A stretch of 64,000 bases of DNA from the human T2T-CHM13v2.0 reference genome, Homo sapiens: contig CP086569.2 in the NCBI GenBank assembly GCA_009914755.4, forward strand, positions 448,001 to 512,000, read 5' to 3'. Both the position numbers and the translations under genes were made by a program. The notes beneath the pieces are model-generated. The model was not told the origin of the DNA. It ran no database searches and saw only the letters and a list, made by a program, of their open reading frames with translations. Below, piece by piece: positions 27,900-34,900 of this stretch (within the stretch, counting starts at the first letter, position 1; each line of letters opens with the position of its first letter).

Positions 27900-28041
27900 C
27901 TATTCCCCTTGGTGCTGCAAATGACAGAGAGAGAGAAAGGAGAGAGAGAAAGAAAAGAGAAGAGAGAGAGAGAGAGAAGACAGAAAGACAGAGACAGAGA
28001 AGAGAGAGAAAAGACAGAGAGAAGAGAGAGGACAGAGAGAA

Positions 28042-28076
<35 letters not shown>

Positions 28077-29130
28077 AGACAGAGAGAGAAAGAAAAGAGA
28101 AGAGAGAGAGAAAGAAGACAGAAAGACAGAGAGAGAGAAGAGAGAAAGAGAGAGGAGAGAAGAGAGAGAGGAGAGAGAGAAGACAGACAGAGAAGAGAGA
28201 GAAAAGAGAGAGAGAAGAGAGAGAAGAGAGAGGACAGAGAGAAAGAGAGAGAGGAGAGAGAGAAAGACAGAGACAGAAGAGAGAGAAAGAGAGAAGACAG
28301 AGAGAAAGAGAGAGAGGAGAGAGAGAAAGACAGAGAGAGAGAAGATAGAGAGAGAGAAGACAGAGAGAAGACAGACAGAGAGAGAGAAAGACAGAGAGAG
28401 AGAAGAGAGAGAAAGACAGAGAGAAGACAGAGAGAGAGAGAAAGACAGAGAGAAGACAGAGAGAGAAAGACAGAGAGAGAGAAGATAGAGAGAGAGAAGA
28501 CAGAGAAGACAGAGAGAGAGAGAAAGACAGAGAGAGAGAAGAGAGAGAAAGACAGAGAGAAGACAGAGAGAGAGAAAGACAGAGAGAAGACAGAGAGAGA
28601 GAGAAAGAGAGAGAGAGAAGACAGAGAGAGAAGAGAGAGAGAAAGAGAAAGACAGAGAGAGAGAGGACAGAGATAGAAAGAGAGACAGAGAAGACAGAGA
28701 GAGAGAGAAAGACAGAGAGAGAAGAGAGAGAAAGAGAGAGAGAGAAAGACAGAGAGAGAAGAGAGAGAAAGACAGAGAGCGAGAGAAAGACAGAGAGAGA
28801 AGAGAGAGAGAAAGACAGAGAGAGAGAAGACAGAGAGAGAGAAAGAGAGCGAGAAGAGAGAGAGAAAGACAGAGAGAGAGAGAAAGAGAGAGAAGACAGA
28901 GAGAGAAGAGAGAGAGAAGACAGAAAGACACAGAGAGAGAGAAGACAGAGAGAGAGAAAAAGTCAGAGAGAGAAGACAGAGAGAGAGAAAAAGACAGACA
29001 GAGAAGACAGAGAGAGAGAAAAAGACAGAGAGAAGACAGACAGAAAGAGAGAGAAGAGAGAGAGAAGACAGAGACAGAAAGCGAGAGAAAGACAGAGAGA
29101 GAAAGTCAGAGAGAAGAGAGAGAGAGAGCA
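27900..29130. repeat. Polypurine (GA-rich) simple repeat of about 1.23 kb on the + strand ((GAGA)n interspersed with gacaga/gaaaga)
   Basis: gagagagagaaaggagagagagaaagaaaagagaagagagagagagagaagacagaaagacagagacagagaag... essentially no C/T on + strand. Confidence 0.9.
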
Positions 29131-29199
29131 AATGACTTATTCCTTAAAACGTACCTAATTCACATAGAAAAAGCCAGATTATTTGATAAAGTGGGCCAG

Positions 29200-30990: not shown

Positions 30991-31129
30991 CAGTCGTTGT
31001 TTTTGTCCATCCACTAACTTCTCTGAAACCTGATTCTTTTGGGACGCTTGGCAAAAGGCATTTCATACAGGGAGGCGGTCACATACGCTAACAAGACACG
31101 GTGAAAAGTCTCTTCTCATCGGCTTGGTG

Positions 31130-32570
31130 TGCTGCTCTCTTCTCTCTCTCGCTGTCTCTCTCTGTCTGTCTCTCTGTCCCCTGTCTGTCTCTATTTTTCT
31201 CTGTCTATCTCTGTATCTCTGTCTCTCTCTTTCTCTCCTCTGTCTCTCTGTATCTCTGTCCATCTCTGTCTCTCTTTCTCTCTCTCCTCTCTCTCTTTTT
31301 CTCTGTCTCTGTCTGTATCTCTATCTCTGTCTCTCTTTCTCTCTGTCTTCGTTCCTCTCTCTCTTTTTTTCTCTCTTCCTCTGTCTCTCTTTCTATCTCT
31401 GTCTCTCTCTCTCTCTCCTCTCTCTCTGTCTCTTTTTCTCTGTCTCTGTCTGTATCTCTGTCTGTCTCTGTCTCTCTTTCTCTCCTCTCTCTGTATCTCT
31501 GTCTCTGTCTCTCTTTCTCTCCTCTCTTTTTCTCTGTCTCTGTATCTCTGTCTATCTCTGTCTCTCTTTCTCTCTCTCCTCTCTCTCTTTCTCTGTCTCT
31601 GTCTGTATCTCTATCTCTGTCTCTCTTTCTCTCTGTCTTCGTTCCTCTCTCTCTTTTTCTCTTTCTCTGTATCTCTATCTCTGTCTCTCTTTCTCTCTCT
31701 CCTCTCTCTCTGTCTCTTTTTCTCTGTCTCTCTCTGTGTCTCTACCTCTGTCTCTCTCTCTCCTCTCTTTTTCTCTGTCTCTGTCTGTATCTCTGGCTAT
31801 CTCTGTCTCTCTCTCTCCTCTCTCTCTTTCTCTGTCTCTGTCTGTATCTCTATCTCTGTCTCTCTTTCTCTCTGTCTTTGTTCCTCTCTTTTTTCTCTTT
31901 CTCTGTATCTCTGTCTATCTCTGTCTCTCTTTCTCTCTCTCCTCTCTCTCTGTCTCTTTTTCTCTGTCTCTCTCTGTGTCTCTACCTCTGTCTCTCTTTC
32001 TCTCCTCTCTTTTTCTCTGTCTCTGTCTGTATCTCTGTCTGTCTCTGTCTCTCTCTCTCCTCTCTCTCTTTCTCTGTCTCTGTCTCTCTTTCTCTCCTCT
32101 CTCTGTATCTCTGTCTCTGTCTCTCTTTCTCTCCTCTCTCTCTTTTTCTCTGTCTCTGTATCTCTGTCTATCTCTGTCTCTCTTTCTCTCTCTCATCTCT
32201 CTCTGTCTCTTTTTCTCTGTCTCTCTCTGTGTCTCTACCTCTGTCTCTCTTTCTCTCCTCTCTTTTTCTCTGTCTCTGTATCTCTATCTCTGTCTCTCTT
32301 TCTCTCTCTCCTCTCTCTCTTTTTCTGTCTCTGTCTCTCTGTCTGTCTCTGTCTCTCTTTGTCTCTCTCCTCTCTGTCTCTTTTTCTCTGTCTCTCTCTG
32401 TGTCTCTACCTGTGTCTCTCTTTCCTCTCTCTTTTTCTCTCTCTGTCTGTATCTCTGTCTACCTCTGTCTCTCTCTCTCTCCTCTCTCTCTGTCTCTTTT
32501 TCTCTGTCTTTCTGTCTCTCTATCTCTGTGACTCTTTCCCTCTCTCCTCTCTCTTTTTCTCTCTCTCCCT
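31130..32570. repeat. Polypyrimidine (CT-rich) simple repeat of about 1.45 kb with higher-order periodicity
   Basis: tctctgtctctctttctctcctctctctgtatctctgtc... continuous. Block ctctgtctctgtctgtatctctatctctgtctctctttctctctgtcttcgttcctctctc recurs at about 31300, 31600 and 31845. Confidence 0.9.
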
Positions 32571-33519
32571 GTCTCAGGGAAGCATCAGTAAAACCTCCAA
32601 CAAGCACCCCCTTGTACACAGCCCAGGCCAAGAGAGGTGCAGACCCTGCTTTCTGCCTGCAGCCGCCTGCTGTAAAATGTCAATGCAAAACATTTCATAC
32701 AGTCCACCCACTCTGCAGACTGGAGCTGCGGCCTCTCGGACAGCGTCTTGAATTTGCAACGAAAAACGTGTGGGGTAGAAAAAGCTCTCGTCTGGATTTC
32801 TAACATGTTATCAAGCACTCAAACGCTGGGTGTTTCCTGCCTGTCTTTAAAGGGAAGGGCAGGGAGAGAACGTAAAAGCTCTGGTCAGAGAAGGGAAAGG
32901 TCTTTAGGTGAGAGGGGTGAGGCCGCCTCCGTGCTCATCCCACAGGAAGAGTTGGAGTTTTACAGAAAGATGAGATCTCTTTCGCGTAGCCAGAAACTCT
33001 TAGGAAAAGCGGGGTGTTGGAAAGGCAGAAAGTGTGCCATGAATCGGACGTGCGTGATTTCAAAGCCACTTGTCTGCAGTGAGAATTACAATTGGGGCTT
33101 CAGTTGAAAAAGGGCCTTTGCTTTTTCTCCGAGGCCGAGGGGCCTTGAATAGCCACACAGCTCCTGACTGGTGTCCCCATGCTCATTCCTGGAGGCTCGG
33201 AGACCCTGGTAGAGCGGAGTTTCCTACTAGACAAAGGGGTCCAGATTGCGGCCCAAGAAGGAACCTCAGGTCGGGGAAAGCCTGGGCCTCACGGGACCCC
33301 CCAGGAAAGCCTGGTCCTTGGGGTTGGAGAAGACAGCTGAGCTGGGAGGACGGAGGGTTTTCGGTAGGGAGACAGTGAGCAGCTGTGAGAGGTTTACGGC
33401 GCAGTCCCTGGGGACCCAGTTTCCCAGCAGAGGCAGAGATGGGGAGGCCTTTAGAAGCAGAAAAGTTACCCGGCCTCTGAGGACCCAGAAAGTTGCTCTA
33501 AGCCAGAGACCCTTCTCCG

Positions 33520-34900
33520 AATCTCCCTCTCTGTCTGTCTCTGCCTCTCTCCCTCTTTCTCTTCCCCCTCCCTGTCTCCCTCTCTGTGTCTCTGCCTCTC
33601 TTTGTCTCTCTCTGTATCTCTATCTGTGTCTCTCTTTTTCTCTCTCCATCTCTCTGTCTCTCCGTTTCTCTCTTTCTCTCTCCCTCTCTCTCCCTGTCCG
33701 TGTCGCTCTTTCTCTCTCTCCATCTCCCAGTCTCTCCCTTTCTCTCTCTCTCCATCTCTCCCTGTCTCTCTCTTTCTCTGTCTCCATCTCTTTCTCTGTC
33801 TCTCCTTGTCTCTCTCTTTCTCTCTCTCCATCTCTCTCTGTCTCTCCCTGTCTGTTTCTCTCTCTCCATCTGTCTGTCTCTCCCTTTCTCTCTCTCTGTC
33901 TCTCCCTCTCTCTCCCTGTCTGTGTCTCTCTTTCTCTCTCTCCATCTCTCTCTGTCTCTCCCTGTGTTTCTCTCTCTCCATCTCTCTCTGTCTCTCCCTG
34001 TCTGTTTCTCTCTCTCCATCTGTCTGTCTCTCTCTTTCTCTCTCTATCTCTCCCTCTCTCTCCCTGTCTGTGTCTCTCTTTCTCTCTCTCCATCTCTCTC
34101 TGTCTCTCCCTGTGTTTCTCTCTCTCCATCTCTCTCTGTCTCTCCCTGTGTTTCTCTCTCTCCATCTCTCTCTGTCTCTCCCTGTCTGTTTCTCTCTCTC
34201 CATCTGTCTGTGTCTCTCTTTCTCTCTCTCTATCTCTCCCTCTCTCTCCCTGTCTGTGTCTCTCTTTCTCTCTCTCCATCTCTCTCTGTCTCTCCCTGTG
34301 TTTCTCTCTCTCCATCTCTCTCTGTCTCTCCCTGTCTGTTTCTCTCTCTCCATCTGTCTGTCTCTCTCTTTCTCTCTCTCTATCTCTCCCTCTCTCTCCC
34401 TGTCTGTGTCTCTCTTTCTCTCTCTCCATCTCTCTCTGTCTCTCCCTGTGTGTTTCTCTATCTCCATCTCTCTGTCTCTCCCTTTCTCTCTCTCTGTCTC
34501 TCCCTCTCTCTCCCTGTCTGTGTCTCTCTTTCTCTCTCTCCATCTCTCTCTGTCTCTCCCTGTGTTTCTCTCTCTCCATCTCTCTCCGTCTCTCCCTGTC
34601 TGTCTCTTTCTCTGTCTCCATCTCTCTCTGTCTCTCCTTGACTCTCTTTCTCTCTGTCTCCATGTCTCTGTCTCTCCCTGTCTGTGTCTCTCTTTCTCTC
34701 TCCATCTCTCTCCGTCTTTCCCCCTCTGTCTCTTTCTCTGTCTCCATCCCTCTGTCTCTCCCTTTCTCTCTGTCTTTCCTTGTCTCTCTCTTTCTCTCTC
34801 TCTCTCCATCTCTCTCTCTCCCTGTCTCTCTCTCTCCATCTCCCCGTCTCTCCGTTTCTCTCTCTGCCTCTCCCTGTCTGTCTCTCTCTTTCTGTGTCTT
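33520..34900. repeat. Polypyrimidine (CT-rich) simple repeat of about 1.4 kb with a higher-order unit of about 115-120 bp
   Basis: ccatctctctctgtctctccctgtgtttctctctctccatctctctctgtctctccctgtctgtttctctctctccatctgtctgtctctc recurs many times. Confidence 0.9.

What the first reader, a model, noticed from the sequence alone, without database searches (positions are those of the whole stretch)
27900..34900. About 4.8 kb of strand-asymmetric polypurine/polypyrimidine megatracts between the distal CpG island and exon 2 (likely SHOX intron 1 and 5' flank)
Four blocks are almost pure R or Y on one strand. They are 27900-29130 (GA-rich on +), 30290-30990 (TTTC/TTCC/CCT), 31130-32570 (CT-rich) and 33520-34900 (CT-rich). 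Each has its own higher-order periodicity (about 190 bp, about 250-300 bp, about 115-120 bp). The purine strand switches from + to - across the 29.2-30.3 kb CpG island. Such mirror-repeat R·Y tracts can adopt H-DNA/triplex structures, stall polymerases and promote breakage. Here they sit exactly at the probable SHOX promoter/intron 1, in a region of extreme male recombination and recurrent deletions. They also create huge stop-free ORFs (for example 27695-29131 minus, 31124-32803 plus, 33246-35096 plus) that are not genes.
Basis: partly seen in the sequence, partly recalled or inferred. Interest (0 to 1): 0.6.

Follow-up and report, generated by a model that had tools for sequence, protein, structure and literature searches.

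The report
Unstable purine–pyrimidine repeat arrays at SHOX
Half of the 10 kb upstream of the human SHOX start codon is four long, degenerate GA/CT repeat arrays of a kind already known from this chromosome region, which grew recently in the ape and human lineage and vary between haplotypes in orangutan and siamang, so they look like unstable by-products rather than conserved control elements.

Summary
Four blocks (27926-29128, 30290-30990, 31135-32575, 33522-34893) are 89.5-93% purine or pyrimidine on one strand. The window is SHOX: B1 abuts the exon-1 CpG island and B2-B4 fill 60% of intron 1. They are degenerate (GA)n/(CT)n-type minisatellites with higher-order units. Perfect H-DNA mirror motifs cover 59% of B1 and B2, 31% of B3 and only 9% of B4.

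Orthologous loci show the arrays are lineage-specific expansions of short seeds. B1 is about 50-75 bp in siamang and colobines, 740-940 bp in orangutans and 1.2 kb here. B3 runs 110, 320-520 and 1441 bp, and B4 210-830 and 1372 bp. Between X and Y haplotypes of orangutan and siamang, indels are 6-11 times denser inside the tracts than outside.

The strand arrangement is not conserved. Every other eutherian examined has purine arrays on the coding strand just upstream of exon 2, next to a conserved ~120-bp element. This window lacks both, through a 1.5-2.2 kb deletion whose right end sits at the edge of a (GAAA)n array.

Verdict: a known kind (long R·Y tracts typical of PAR1). Instability is supported, function and any hotspot link are untested. 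The deletion is the most interesting by-product.

The parts
27926..29128 (+). B1: purine-rich on + (93% R). A degenerate (GA)n array with regular GACAG interruptions, a 31-bp unit and a weak 136-140-bp higher order. It lies directly upstream of the exon-1 CpG island.
   Evidence: The orthologue is about 52 bp in siamang, about 75 bp in colobines and 740-940 bp in orangutans.
29161..30360 (+). CpG island 1 (GC 61%, CpG o/e 0.72), taken as the P1 promoter and non-coding exon 1. This is the point where the purine strand switches.
   Evidence: The exon-1 position is inferred from remembered hg19 coordinates, which reproduce the exon 2 to exon 3 spacing seen in the window (35768 to 39920). P1/P2 are described in PMC4971310.
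30290..30990 (-). B2: pyrimidine-rich on + (91% Y). A composite of (TTCC)n, (TTTC)n, (CCCT/TTCC)n and (CCT)n microsatellites inside a 149-bp unit repeated 2-3 times. Pure runs reach 137 nt, making it the most H-DNA-prone block.
   Evidence: (family D9). It is present in all anthropoids examined at 260-1290 bp, and at about 110 bp in mouse lemur.
31135..32575 (-). B3: pyrimidine-rich on + (89.5% Y). A (CT)n-derived array with CTGTC/CTGTA/CTATC interruptions, 53-59-bp subunits and higher-order periods of 240-290 bp. It ends in a 3'-splice-site-like ...ctccctgtctcag|g.
   Evidence: The orthologue is about 110 bp in siamang, about 100-130 bp in colobines and 320-520 bp in orangutans.
33522..34893 (-). 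B4: pyrimidine-rich on + (90% Y). A 150-bp higher-order repeat in about 9 copies, with stretches 93-96% identical at lags of 114-598 bp. It has few perfect mirror motifs and abuts CpG island 2.
   Evidence: The orthologue is 210-250 bp in siamang, 360-460 bp in orangutans, 470 bp in Trachypithecus and 830 bp in Semnopithecus.
35059..35060 (+). Junction of a lineage-specific deletion (cctggtgcc|ccactttatttgcag). It removed the ancestral conserved ~120-bp element plus the (GGAA/GGGA)n and (GAAA)n purine arrays of intron 1.
35768..36476 (+). SHOX exon 2, with the acceptor at 35767/35768, the ATG at 36200 and the donor at 36476/36477. It lies inside CpG island 2 (34941-36920). Listed as context that anchors the tracts to intron 1.

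Best explanation
The four blocks are hypermutable, degenerate (GA)n·(CT)n-type microsatellite/minisatellite arrays in the 5' flank and intron 1 of SHOX.

Origin. Each grew in place from a short seed (50-130 bp in gibbon and Old World monkeys). Growth was by slippage and unequal exchange of progressively larger units (31 to ~140 bp, 57 to 240-290 bp, 150 to 334 bp). Most of the growth came after the gibbon split, with more after the orangutan split.

Mechanism. Shown: the in-place expansion, the higher-order repeat structure, and the excess of indels and substitutions inside orthologous tracts. Inferred from known biochemistry of R·Y mirror repeats: they are prone to slippage and, in B1, B2 and part of B3, to H-DNA formation. 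This makes them sites of polymerase stalling, indels and occasional breakage. A 1.5-2.2 kb deletion with one end exactly at the edge of an ancestral (GAAA)n array is the local example.

Function. Their present sequence, length and strand arrangement are a mutational by-product of PAR1 rather than a conserved functional design.
For: Anatomy:
- Tandem structure and higher-order units with 93-96% identical stretches.
- The same CTGTC/GACAG interruption recurs in B1, B3 and B4 and is already present in the colobine seed.

Lineage specificity (anchored by collinear unique flanks):
- B1: 52-75 bp, then 740-940 bp, then 1203 bp.
- B3: about 110 bp, then 320-520 bp, then 1441 bp.
- B4: 210-830 bp, then 1372 bp.
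- R·Y load in the 10 kb before the ATG: human 4.9 kb, orangutan 2.9-3.1, siamang 2.4, colobines 2.0-2.1, marmoset 3.6, mouse lemur 0.9, elephant 1.1, canid 0.3.
- A downstream tract goes the other way: 260 bp here against 580-880 bp in siamang, Trachypithecus and marmoset.

Instability between haplotypes:
- Siamang X vs Y: 4.6 indels/kb and 0.88% mismatch inside tracts, against 0.4/kb and 0.22% outside.
- Bornean orangutan X vs Y: 4.8/kb and 2.0% inside, against 0.8/kb and 0.58% outside. The B1 orthologue is 180 bp shorter on the Y (920 vs 740 bp) and the B4 orthologue 94-100 bp longer.

No conserved design:
- All non-human eutherians examined carry purine arrays on the coding strand in the 3' part of intron 1.

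H-DNA motifs:
- They cover 59%, 59%, 31% and 9% of B1-B4, against 0.7% of the window outside its R·Y tracts.

Deletion breakpoint at an array edge.

Known class:
- Clusters of H-palindromes in the pseudoautosomal region (PMC4538819, citing Bacolla 2006).
- PAR1 enriched for GA microsatellites that cause HiFi read dropouts (10.1101/2022.12.01.518724).
- SHOX-flanking GA and CT microsatellite markers with heterozygosity 0.96 and 0.69 (PMC5096468).
Against: - Some R·Y tract has persisted at the same two places for a long time: just 3' of exon 1, and next to the conserved element 5' of exon 2. The (GGAA)n array sits within about 100 bp of that element in elephant, canid, lemur, monkeys and apes. 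That could mean a function for 'a tract' even though its sequence is free to vary.
- In this window the arrays abut both CpG islands. All intronic arrays have the pyrimidine strand as coding strand, which is the transcription-permissive orientation.
- Human population data for B1-B4 were not obtained.
- Indel and mismatch counts in low-complexity alignments, and T2T assemblies of GA-rich DNA, carry some error. The net length differences do not depend on the alignment.
- Non-B structure formation is inferred, not shown.
Confidence: 0.75

Rival explanations
1. The arrays are cis-acting elements for SHOX expression. Possible roles are nucleosome-excluding or protein-binding boundaries around the two CpG-island promoters, an orientation-dependent 'transcriptional diode', or a 3.5-kb CU-rich intronic RNA that binds PTBP1, PCBP or hnRNP K and tunes splicing of P1 transcripts.
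For: - The arrays abut CpG islands 1 and 2.
- All human intron-1 arrays are pyrimidine on the coding strand, so transcripts leaving CGI-1 in either direction would be CU-rich.
- CTCTCT occurs at 45.6 per kb in intron 1, against 1.7 per kb downstream.
- Tracts persist at both ends of intron 1 across eutherians.
- Grabczyk & Fishman 1995 'transcriptional diode' appears in the reference list read. What that paper shows is recalled from memory.
Against: - Length, sequence and internal structure change several-fold to about 20-fold among catarrhines and differ between haplotypes.
- Polarity is not conserved. Orangutan, siamang, colobines, marmoset, lemur, canid and elephant have 0.24-1.6 kb of purine-rich coding strand inside intron 1, which is the supposedly blocking orientation.
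- There are no expression data.
Confidence: 0.12
2. The arrays promote meiotic double-strand breaks or crossovers in PAR1. This would be analogous to minisatellite arrays that recruit the break machinery in the mouse PAR, and would contribute to the very hot SHOX crossover hotspot and to recurrent SHOX deletions.
For: - The SHOX hotspot is one of the hottest measured in sperm and lies at a peak of male recombination (PMC4102438).
- Poly-purine/pyrimidine tracts are statistically enriched in the human hotspots analysed, a set that includes SHOX (PMC1543642).
- Long R·Y tracts cluster in the PAR.
- The mouse mo-2 analogy is from memory (Acquaviva et al. 2020).
Against: - The hotspot's coordinates relative to the tracts could not be established.
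- The PRDM9 13-mer is not enriched in the window: 6 hits against 3.8 expected, with one hit in B2.
- PMC1543642 itself found no correlation between tract density and hotspot intensity in humans, and notes that tract density is not sufficient to make a hotspot.
- The array sizes here are recent, while PAR1 crossover is ancient.
Confidence: 0.15
3. B1 and B3/B4 are the two arms of a large inverted duplication (a quasi-palindrome) flanking the promoter, able to form a cruciform or to pair over long range.
For: - Inverted-repeat hits of up to 132-135 nt at 75-78% complementarity between B1 and B3.
- B1, B3 and B4 share the GACAG/CTGTC interruption motif.
Against: - Shared 14-, 18- and 22-mers between rc(B1) and B3 or B4 are no more numerous than in order-4 or order-6 Markov simulations of each block. 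For example at k=18, 26 observed against 51-57 expected.
- The B1 and B3 seeds exist separately in siamang and colobines at their own positions.
Confidence: 0.02
4. The tracts, or the missing 1.5-2.2 kb, are assembly or cloning artefacts of the source sequence.
For: - R·Y arrays are unstable in E. coli clones and cause HiFi dropouts in PAR1.
- The deletion junction could not be confirmed in independent human data.
Against: - Orthologous arrays sit at the same anchored positions in independent T2T assemblies of two orangutan species (X and Y in one of them) and of siamang (X and Y).
- The junction is clean and the flanks are collinear at 91-94% identity.
- The exon 2 to exon 3 spacing matches the remembered reference coordinates.
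Confidence: 0.03

Closest known systems
PKD1 intron 21 pyrimidine-rich element (2.5-kb PyRE)
   Same: A kilobase-scale intronic tract with the pyrimidine strand as coding strand and many mirror repeats. It is documented to form triplexes, stall replication and be fragile (PMC11667243). It is also absent from the mouse orthologue, so it too is lineage-specific.
   Different: [quoted passage not shown] The SHOX blocks are 89.5-93% with frequent G/A interruptions. B3 and B4 have no pure run of 40 nt or more, and B4 has almost no perfect mirror motifs. No structural or fragility experiment exists for SHOX.
Long homopurine·homopyrimidine tracts characteristic of the pseudoautosomal region (Bacolla et al. 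2006, NAR 34:2663)
   Same: Same chromosomal region and same sequence class. The reported clustering of H-palindromes in the PAR (as cited in PMC4538819) already predicts tracts like these.
   Different: That catalogue, as I recall it, used long uninterrupted tracts (>=250 bp; the paper is not held). The longest uninterrupted run in B1-B4 is 137 nt and in the whole window 171 nt.
PAR1 GA microsatellites and SHOX-flanking markers DXYS10092 (GA) and DXYS10093 (CT)
   Same: GA/CT repeats next to SHOX, highly polymorphic with heterozygosity 0.96 and 0.69 (PMC5096468). GA microsatellites are enriched in PAR1.
   Different: Those are short PCR-size microsatellites. The perfect (AG)27.5 at 26643-26697 or the tracts at 7.7 kb and 14.1 kb are likelier to be those markers than the 0.7-1.4-kb degenerate arrays.
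FXN intron 1 (GAA)n and other H-DNA-forming intronic repeats
   Same: An R·Y repeat in the first intron of a dosage-sensitive gene. Its known effects on transcription and replication depend on orientation.
   Different: FXN has a pure triplet repeat with the purine strand coding, and pathology arises through expansion. The human SHOX intron-1 arrays are degenerate and have the pyrimidine strand coding. No disease-linked expansion is known.
Mouse PAR mo-2 minisatellite arrays (from memory: Acquaviva et al. 2020)
   Same: Tandem arrays in a pseudoautosomal region that undergoes an obligatory male crossover.
   Different: mo-2 is a specific 31-bp repeat shown to recruit REC114, MEI4 and ANKRD31. 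Nothing comparable is shown for the SHOX arrays, and there is no sequence relationship.

Membership tests
H-DNA-forming sequence (H-palindrome) | Homopurine on one strand and homopyrimidine on the other | tested here: met
   89.5-93% R or Y over 0.7-1.4 kb. Uninterrupted runs of >=15 nt make up 68%, 80%, 49% and 38% of B1-B4.
H-DNA-forming sequence (H-palindrome) | Mirror symmetry (perfect mirror repeat, arms >=10 nt, spacer <=8 nt) | tested here: inconclusive
   Met for B1 (59% covered, longest arm 17) and B2 (59%, longest arm 24). Moderate for B3 (31%, arm 16). Essentially not met for B4 (9%, arm 12).
H-DNA-forming sequence (H-palindrome) | Demonstrated triplex formation (S1 or chemical reactivity under supercoiling or low pH) | not testable with these tools
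Minisatellite / VNTR | Head-to-tail tandem units of >=10 bp, often with higher-order structure | tested here: met
   TRF periods are 31 (B1), 149 (B2), 53/57 (B3) and 46/150 (B4). k-mer spacing peaks are 136-140, 149, 240-290 and 150/334.
Minisatellite / VNTR | Copy-number or length polymorphism within a species | tested here: inconclusive
   Met for the orthologues. In P. pygmaeus X vs Y, B1 is 920 vs 740 bp and B4 is 360 vs 460 bp. In siamang X vs Y, B2 is 430 vs 460 bp and B4 is 210 vs 250 bp. Human haplotypes of B1-B4 could not be fetched.
Long uninterrupted R·Y tracts of the PAR (Bacolla 2006 class) | Uninterrupted R·Y run of >=250 bp (criterion recalled from memory; the paper is not held) | tested here: not met
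   The longest pure run in B1-B4 is 137 nt (B2). The longest in the window is 171 nt at 7956-8126. They resemble the class but are interrupted versions of it.
Conserved cis-regulatory element | Sequence, length or orientation conserved among orthologues | tested here: not met
   Length changes of several-fold to about 20-fold, different motif content, and opposite polarity of the intron-1 3' arrays in other species.
PRDM9-motif recombination hotspot | Enrichment of CCNCCNTNNCCNC | tested here: not met
   6 matches in 64 kb against 3.8 expected (21 of 100 shuffles reach 6). Only one match lies in the blocks, at 30883 in B2.

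The most novel reading that the evidence does not exclude
In the lineage leading to this (human-type) sequence, after the orangutan split, instability of the intron-1 R·Y arrays caused a 1.5-2.2 kb deletion. The deletion removed a ~120-bp element conserved across eutherians, which carries two TCF/LEF-like cores and TAAT cores. 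It also removed the adjoining (GGAA)n and (GAAA)n purine arrays that sat 0.7-2.5 kb upstream of exon 2 and promoter P2. Three pyrimidine arrays expanded over the same period. Together these changes rewired SHOX 5' regulation: an enhancer was lost, and a purine-coding-strand obstacle between P1 and exon 2 was removed. SHOX dosage sets forearm and lower-leg length, so this would be an hCONDEL-like candidate for ape and human limb-proportion differences.
Probability: 0.12. Interest if true: 0.7.

Novelty: new member of a known kind. Interest (0 to 1): 0.3.

Why it matters
As first described, the finding matters little. Long GA/CT tracts are a recognised hallmark of PAR1. They are a known nuisance for sequencing, and they are routinely masked as simple repeats.

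What the follow-up adds:
- It is a clean, anchored example of how fast such arrays are born, grow, change between haplotypes and are lost at a clinically important, dosage-sensitive gene.
- It gives a caution for diagnostics and assembly. Half of the 10 kb upstream of the SHOX start codon is hypermutable low-complexity DNA.
- It yields a concrete, testable lead. The human-type sequence has lost a eutherian-conserved intronic element and its purine arrays right next to the P2 promoter.

Tried and rejected
- **Inverted duplication of B1 vs B3/B4.** Rejected, because shared k-mers do not exceed Markov expectation, despite the inverted-repeat hits.
- **PRDM9 13-mer enrichment.** None.
- **Rfam scan of 24-37 kb.** Only an Alu-derived SRP hit at 36850-36997.
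- **Independent human copies of the deletion junction.** Two exact-pattern scans each of metagenome contigs and genome contigs gave 0 hits. An exact look-up of the 69-aa ORF spanning the junction found nothing on record.
- **Human, chimpanzee and gorilla DNA.** The exact SHOXa protein (P0141) is on 21 contigs, but DNA retrieval timed out twice. Only CDS-span lengths were returned. For the four assemblies I recognise or take to be human (only GCA_000001405.29 = GRCh38 is certain) these are 27,932, 27,674, 27,452 and 27,157 bp. That shows length variation downstream of the ATG but says nothing about B1-B4.
- **Mapping the clinical markers DXYS10092 and DXYS10093 onto the window.** No primer sequences are held.
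- **Locating the May et al. 2002 SHOX hotspot.** The paper is not held, and no other held paper gives coordinates.
- **Bacolla et al. 2006.** Not held.
- **'Transcriptional diode' orientation rule as a conserved design.** Rejected, because other species carry purine arrays on the coding strand of intron 1.
- **Ungapped autocorrelation.** Too noisy because of indels. It was replaced by k-mer spacing.
- **Literature link between SHOX and hCONDELs.** None found.

Full report

Yes. Sliding-window composition shows GC and AT skews near +0.8 and +1.0 from 27.9 to 29.1 kb. They are near -0.65 and -0.9 across 30.3-31.0, 31.15-32.55 and 33.55-34.9 kb, and the sign change falls in the GC-rich segment at 29.2-30.3 kb.

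The four blocks are 93.0% purine (B1) and 91.4%, 89.5% and 89.7% pyrimidine (B2-B4) on the + strand. In the whole window, 504 of 6391 100-nt windows are >=85% R or Y. None reached that level in 50 first-order Markov simulations, and the binomial probability for one such window is about 1e-12 to 1e-14.

Two qualifications apply.
- Purity is about 90%, not near 100%. Uninterrupted runs of >=40 nt occur only in B1 (maximum 56) and B2 (maximum 137). B3 and B4 reach 39 and 31.
- The higher-order periods are only partly as stated. B1 has a 31-bp unit with a weak 136-140-bp order. B2 has a 149-bp unit in 2-3 copies. B3 has 53-59-bp subunits in 240-290-bp units. B4 has a 150-bp unit in about 9 copies, with 334/186/114-bp substructure and stretches 93-96% identical.

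**2. Where is it?**

Exon 2 has its ATG at 36200. Exon 3 is at 39919-40131, exons 4/5 at about 45.95-46.22 kb and exon 6a at 49456-49710. The same 292-aa sequence is on record as human and Homininae SHOX.

The exon-2 acceptor is at 35767/35768. CpG islands lie at 29161-30360 and 34941-36920.

From remembered hg19 coordinates (exon 1 starts at 585,079 and exon 2 at 591,201), exon 1 would start near 29646, inside the first island. The same offset reproduces the exon 2 to exon 3 spacing seen in the window, and one search gives a consistent build-36 start. SHOX has a P1 promoter at non-coding exon 1 and a P2 promoter in exon 2 (PMC4971310).

So B1 abuts the P1 island on its 5' side. B2-B4 make up 3514 of the roughly 5858 bp of intron 1, which is 60%. 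B4 ends 48 bp before the second island.

**3. What are the blocks?**

They are tandem arrays of degenerate simple sequence.
- B1 is (GA)n broken mostly by GACAG (57 of 86 interruptions).
- B3 and B4 are (CT)n broken mostly by CTGTC (79 and 51 interruptions). This is the same motif on the other strand.
- B2 is a composite of TTCC, TTTC, CCCT and CCT microsatellites inside a 149-bp unit.

I tested whether B1 is an inverted copy of B3 or B4. Shared 14-, 18- and 22-mers are not more numerous than in order-4 or order-6 Markov simulations. The 75-78%-complementary 'inverted repeats' therefore reflect composition, not homology.

Perfect R·Y mirror motifs (arm >=10 nt, spacer <=8 nt) cover 59% of B1, 59% of B2, 31% of B3 and 9% of B4. 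They cover 0.7% of the window outside its R·Y tracts. The longest arms are 17, 24, 16 and 12 nt. H-DNA potential is therefore high for B1 and B2 and low for B4.

**4. Related sequences**

A protein search with SHOXa and cluster look-ups gave orthologues. Their loci were fetched with 10 kb upstream of the ATG:
- siamang X and Y;
- Pongo abelii X, and P. pygmaeus X and Y;
- two colobines;
- marmoset (two sex-chromosome copies);
- mouse lemur, two canids, elephant and chicken.

Unique flanks are collinear with the window, so each block can be bracketed. Lengths in bp:

| Block | Siamang | Colobines | Orangutan | This window |
|---|---|---|---|---|
| B1 | ~52 (between a GCAAATGA direct repeat) | ~75 | 940 / 920 / 740 | 1203 |
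| B2 | 430 / 460 | 370-630 | 260-270 | ~700 |
| B3 | ~110 | ~100-130 | 320 / 510 / 520 | 1441 |
| B4 | 210 / 250 | 470 / 830 | 370 / 360 / 460 | 1372 |

B2 is also 1290 bp in marmoset and 110 bp in mouse lemur.

The R·Y load of the 10 kb before the ATG is 4.9 kb here. It is 2.9-3.1 kb in orangutan, 2.4 in siamang, 2.0-2.1 in colobines, 3.6 in marmoset, 0.9 in lemur, 1.1 in elephant and 0.3 in canid. A tract about 17.6 kb downstream of the ATG goes the other way: 260 bp here against 580-880 bp in siamang, Trachypithecus and marmoset.

These are lineage-specific expansions and contractions of long-lived seeds.

**5. Instability within species**

The X and Y PAR copies of one individual are two haplotypes.
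- In siamang, tracts carry 4.6 indel events per kb and 0.88% mismatches. Outside the tracts the figures are 0.4 per kb and 0.22%.
- In Bornean orangutan, tracts carry 4.8 per kb and 2.0%, against 0.8 per kb and 0.58% outside. The B1 orthologue is 180 bp shorter on the Y (920 vs 740 bp) and the B4 orthologue 94-100 bp longer.

Human, chimpanzee and gorilla DNA could not be retrieved because two look-ups timed out.

**6. The strand arrangement is not a conserved design**

The seeds of B1 (purine on +) and B2 (pyrimidine on +) have the same polarity in all catarrhines. But every non-human eutherian examined switches back to purine-on-coding-strand in the 3' part of intron 1:
- orangutan 700 + 340 bp;
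- siamang 820 + 810 bp;
- colobines 270-500 + 450 bp;
- marmoset about 1100 + 110 bp;
- mouse lemur 810 bp, canids 310 bp, elephant 240 bp.

These are (GGAA/GGGA)n arrays and, in the catarrhines whose sequence I read (siamang, orangutan), (GAAA)n arrays. This rules out a general rule that only the transcription-permissive orientation is tolerated.

**7. A deletion noticed on the way**

The window has no counterpart of siamang L001 6693-8853 (2.16 kb) or orangutan L012 7379-8864 (about 1.49 kb). The flanks join cleanly at 35059/35060 (cctggtgcc|ccactttatttgcag). The right breakpoint is one base past the end of the (GAAA)n array.

The missing piece includes a ~120-bp core conserved in orangutan, siamang, colobines, marmoset, mouse lemur, canid and elephant. 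Its sequence is TGCATAAT..CTATTTGT[A/C]ATTC..GTGATATC..GCTTTGATG..GACAAAGACCTGTTTGTTAAG..TTTGAAGTC. It is always followed within about 100 bp by the (GGAA)n array. It was not detected in chicken, and it is absent from the entire 64-kb window.

The loss therefore post-dates the orangutan split. Whether it is human-specific, shared with African apes, polymorphic or, less likely, a reference artefact could not be settled. No held paper links SHOX with hCONDEL-type deletions.

**8. Mechanism**

Shown:
- in-place tandem expansion;
- higher-order repeat structure;
- excess indels and substitutions inside orthologous tracts;
- a deletion ending at an array edge.

Inferred from established biochemistry of R·Y mirror repeats and microsatellites (PKD1 PyRE, GAA repeats; PMC11667243):
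- slippage and unequal exchange drive growth;
- B1, B2 and part of B3 can adopt H-DNA under negative supercoiling and stall polymerases.

The HiFi dropouts at GA microsatellites in PAR1 are consistent with this. The extreme male recombination of PAR1 (PMC4102438) plausibly accelerates unequal exchange, but that link was not tested here.

**9. Comparison with what is known**

The class is known. Clusters of H-palindromes and long R·Y tracts are characteristic of the pseudoautosomal region (Bacolla 2006, as cited in PMC4538819). PAR1 is enriched for GA microsatellites. GA and CT microsatellites flanking SHOX are used as highly heterozygous clinical markers (PMC5096468).

The closest single analogue is the 2.5-kb pyrimidine tract of PKD1 intron 21. 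The SHOX arrays differ in being more interrupted and, for B4, poor in mirror symmetry.

They also fail any test of conservation as a regulatory element, and they show no PRDM9-motif enrichment.

**10. Verdict**

This is a real feature, correctly located. It is best read as hypermutable, recently expanded simple-repeat arrays of a kind already known for PAR1. The hotspot and clinical-deletion link is untested.

Interest is low to moderate. The most interesting outcome is the derived loss of a eutherian-conserved element and its purine arrays next to the SHOX P2 promoter.

Noticed in passing
window 35059-35060 (compare L012 7379-8864; L001 6693-8853): The window lacks 1.5-2.2 kb of intron 1 that is present in orangutan, siamang, colobines, marmoset, mouse lemur, canids and elephant. 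The missing piece holds a ~120-bp eutherian-conserved element with two TCF/LEF-like cores and TAAT cores, plus (GGAA/GGGA)n and (GAAA)n arrays. The right breakpoint is exactly at the array edge. Timing within Homininae is unknown.
   Followed up: partly
window 26643-26697; 7737-8126; 14122-14328; 53856-54056: There is a perfect (AG)27.5 microsatellite and three further 97-99% pyrimidine tracts (measured on their core 100-400-bp windows) with pure runs up to 171 nt. These are likely candidates for the clinical SHOX markers DXYS10092 (GA) and DXYS10093 (CT). The downstream tract is 260 bp here but 580-880 bp in siamang, Trachypithecus and marmoset.
   Followed up: partly
window 27926-29128 vs 31135-32575 and 33522-34893: The dominant interruption of B1 (GACAG) is the reverse complement of the dominant interruption of B3 and B4 (CTGTC). 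It is already present in the 75-bp colobine seed of B1. So this is the same motif family in opposite orientation, without detectable homology beyond local composition.
   Followed up: yes
L001 4800-5230 vs 6971-8854; L012 5230-5500 vs 7581-8864: In non-human primates the 5' pyrimidine tract (TTTC/TTCC/CCCT) and the 3' purine arrays (GAAA/GGAA/AGGG) of intron 1 are mutually complementary, at 70-81% over 30-200 nt. They could pair the two ends of the intron in pre-mRNA. The 3' partner is deleted in this window. No control for low complexity was run.
   Followed up: no
L001 3712-4373 (siamang) vs window 32611-32922: In siamang, a segment orthologous to the unique DNA between B3 and B4 also occurs as four tandem ~120-bp copies inside the exon-1 CpG-island region. 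It is found in both the X and the Y copy.
   Followed up: no
window 25677-25975: A 147-bp tandem repeat has 2 copies here at 84% identity. Overlapping BLAST matches indicate more copies in siamang.
   Followed up: no
window 36850-36997 (minus strand): An Rfam Metazoa_SRP match (74.7 bits) lies in intron 2 and is most likely an Alu element. BLAST shows many Alu-like copies across the window.
   Followed up: no
window 30767-30785 and 35019-35046: G-quadruplex-type motifs occur here: (CCCT)n in B2, which gives G-runs on the minus strand, and a + strand G4 motif 13 bp upstream of the deletion junction. Published work reports G4s in the SHOX promoter (PMC9481537), but their position was not mapped onto the window.
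   Followed up: no
L011 2911-3730 (elephant): An independent 820-bp, 96%-purine (GGAA)n array lies 6.3-7.1 kb upstream of the elephant SHOX ATG. It is in a similar position and has the same polarity as human B1, but a different motif.
   Followed up: no
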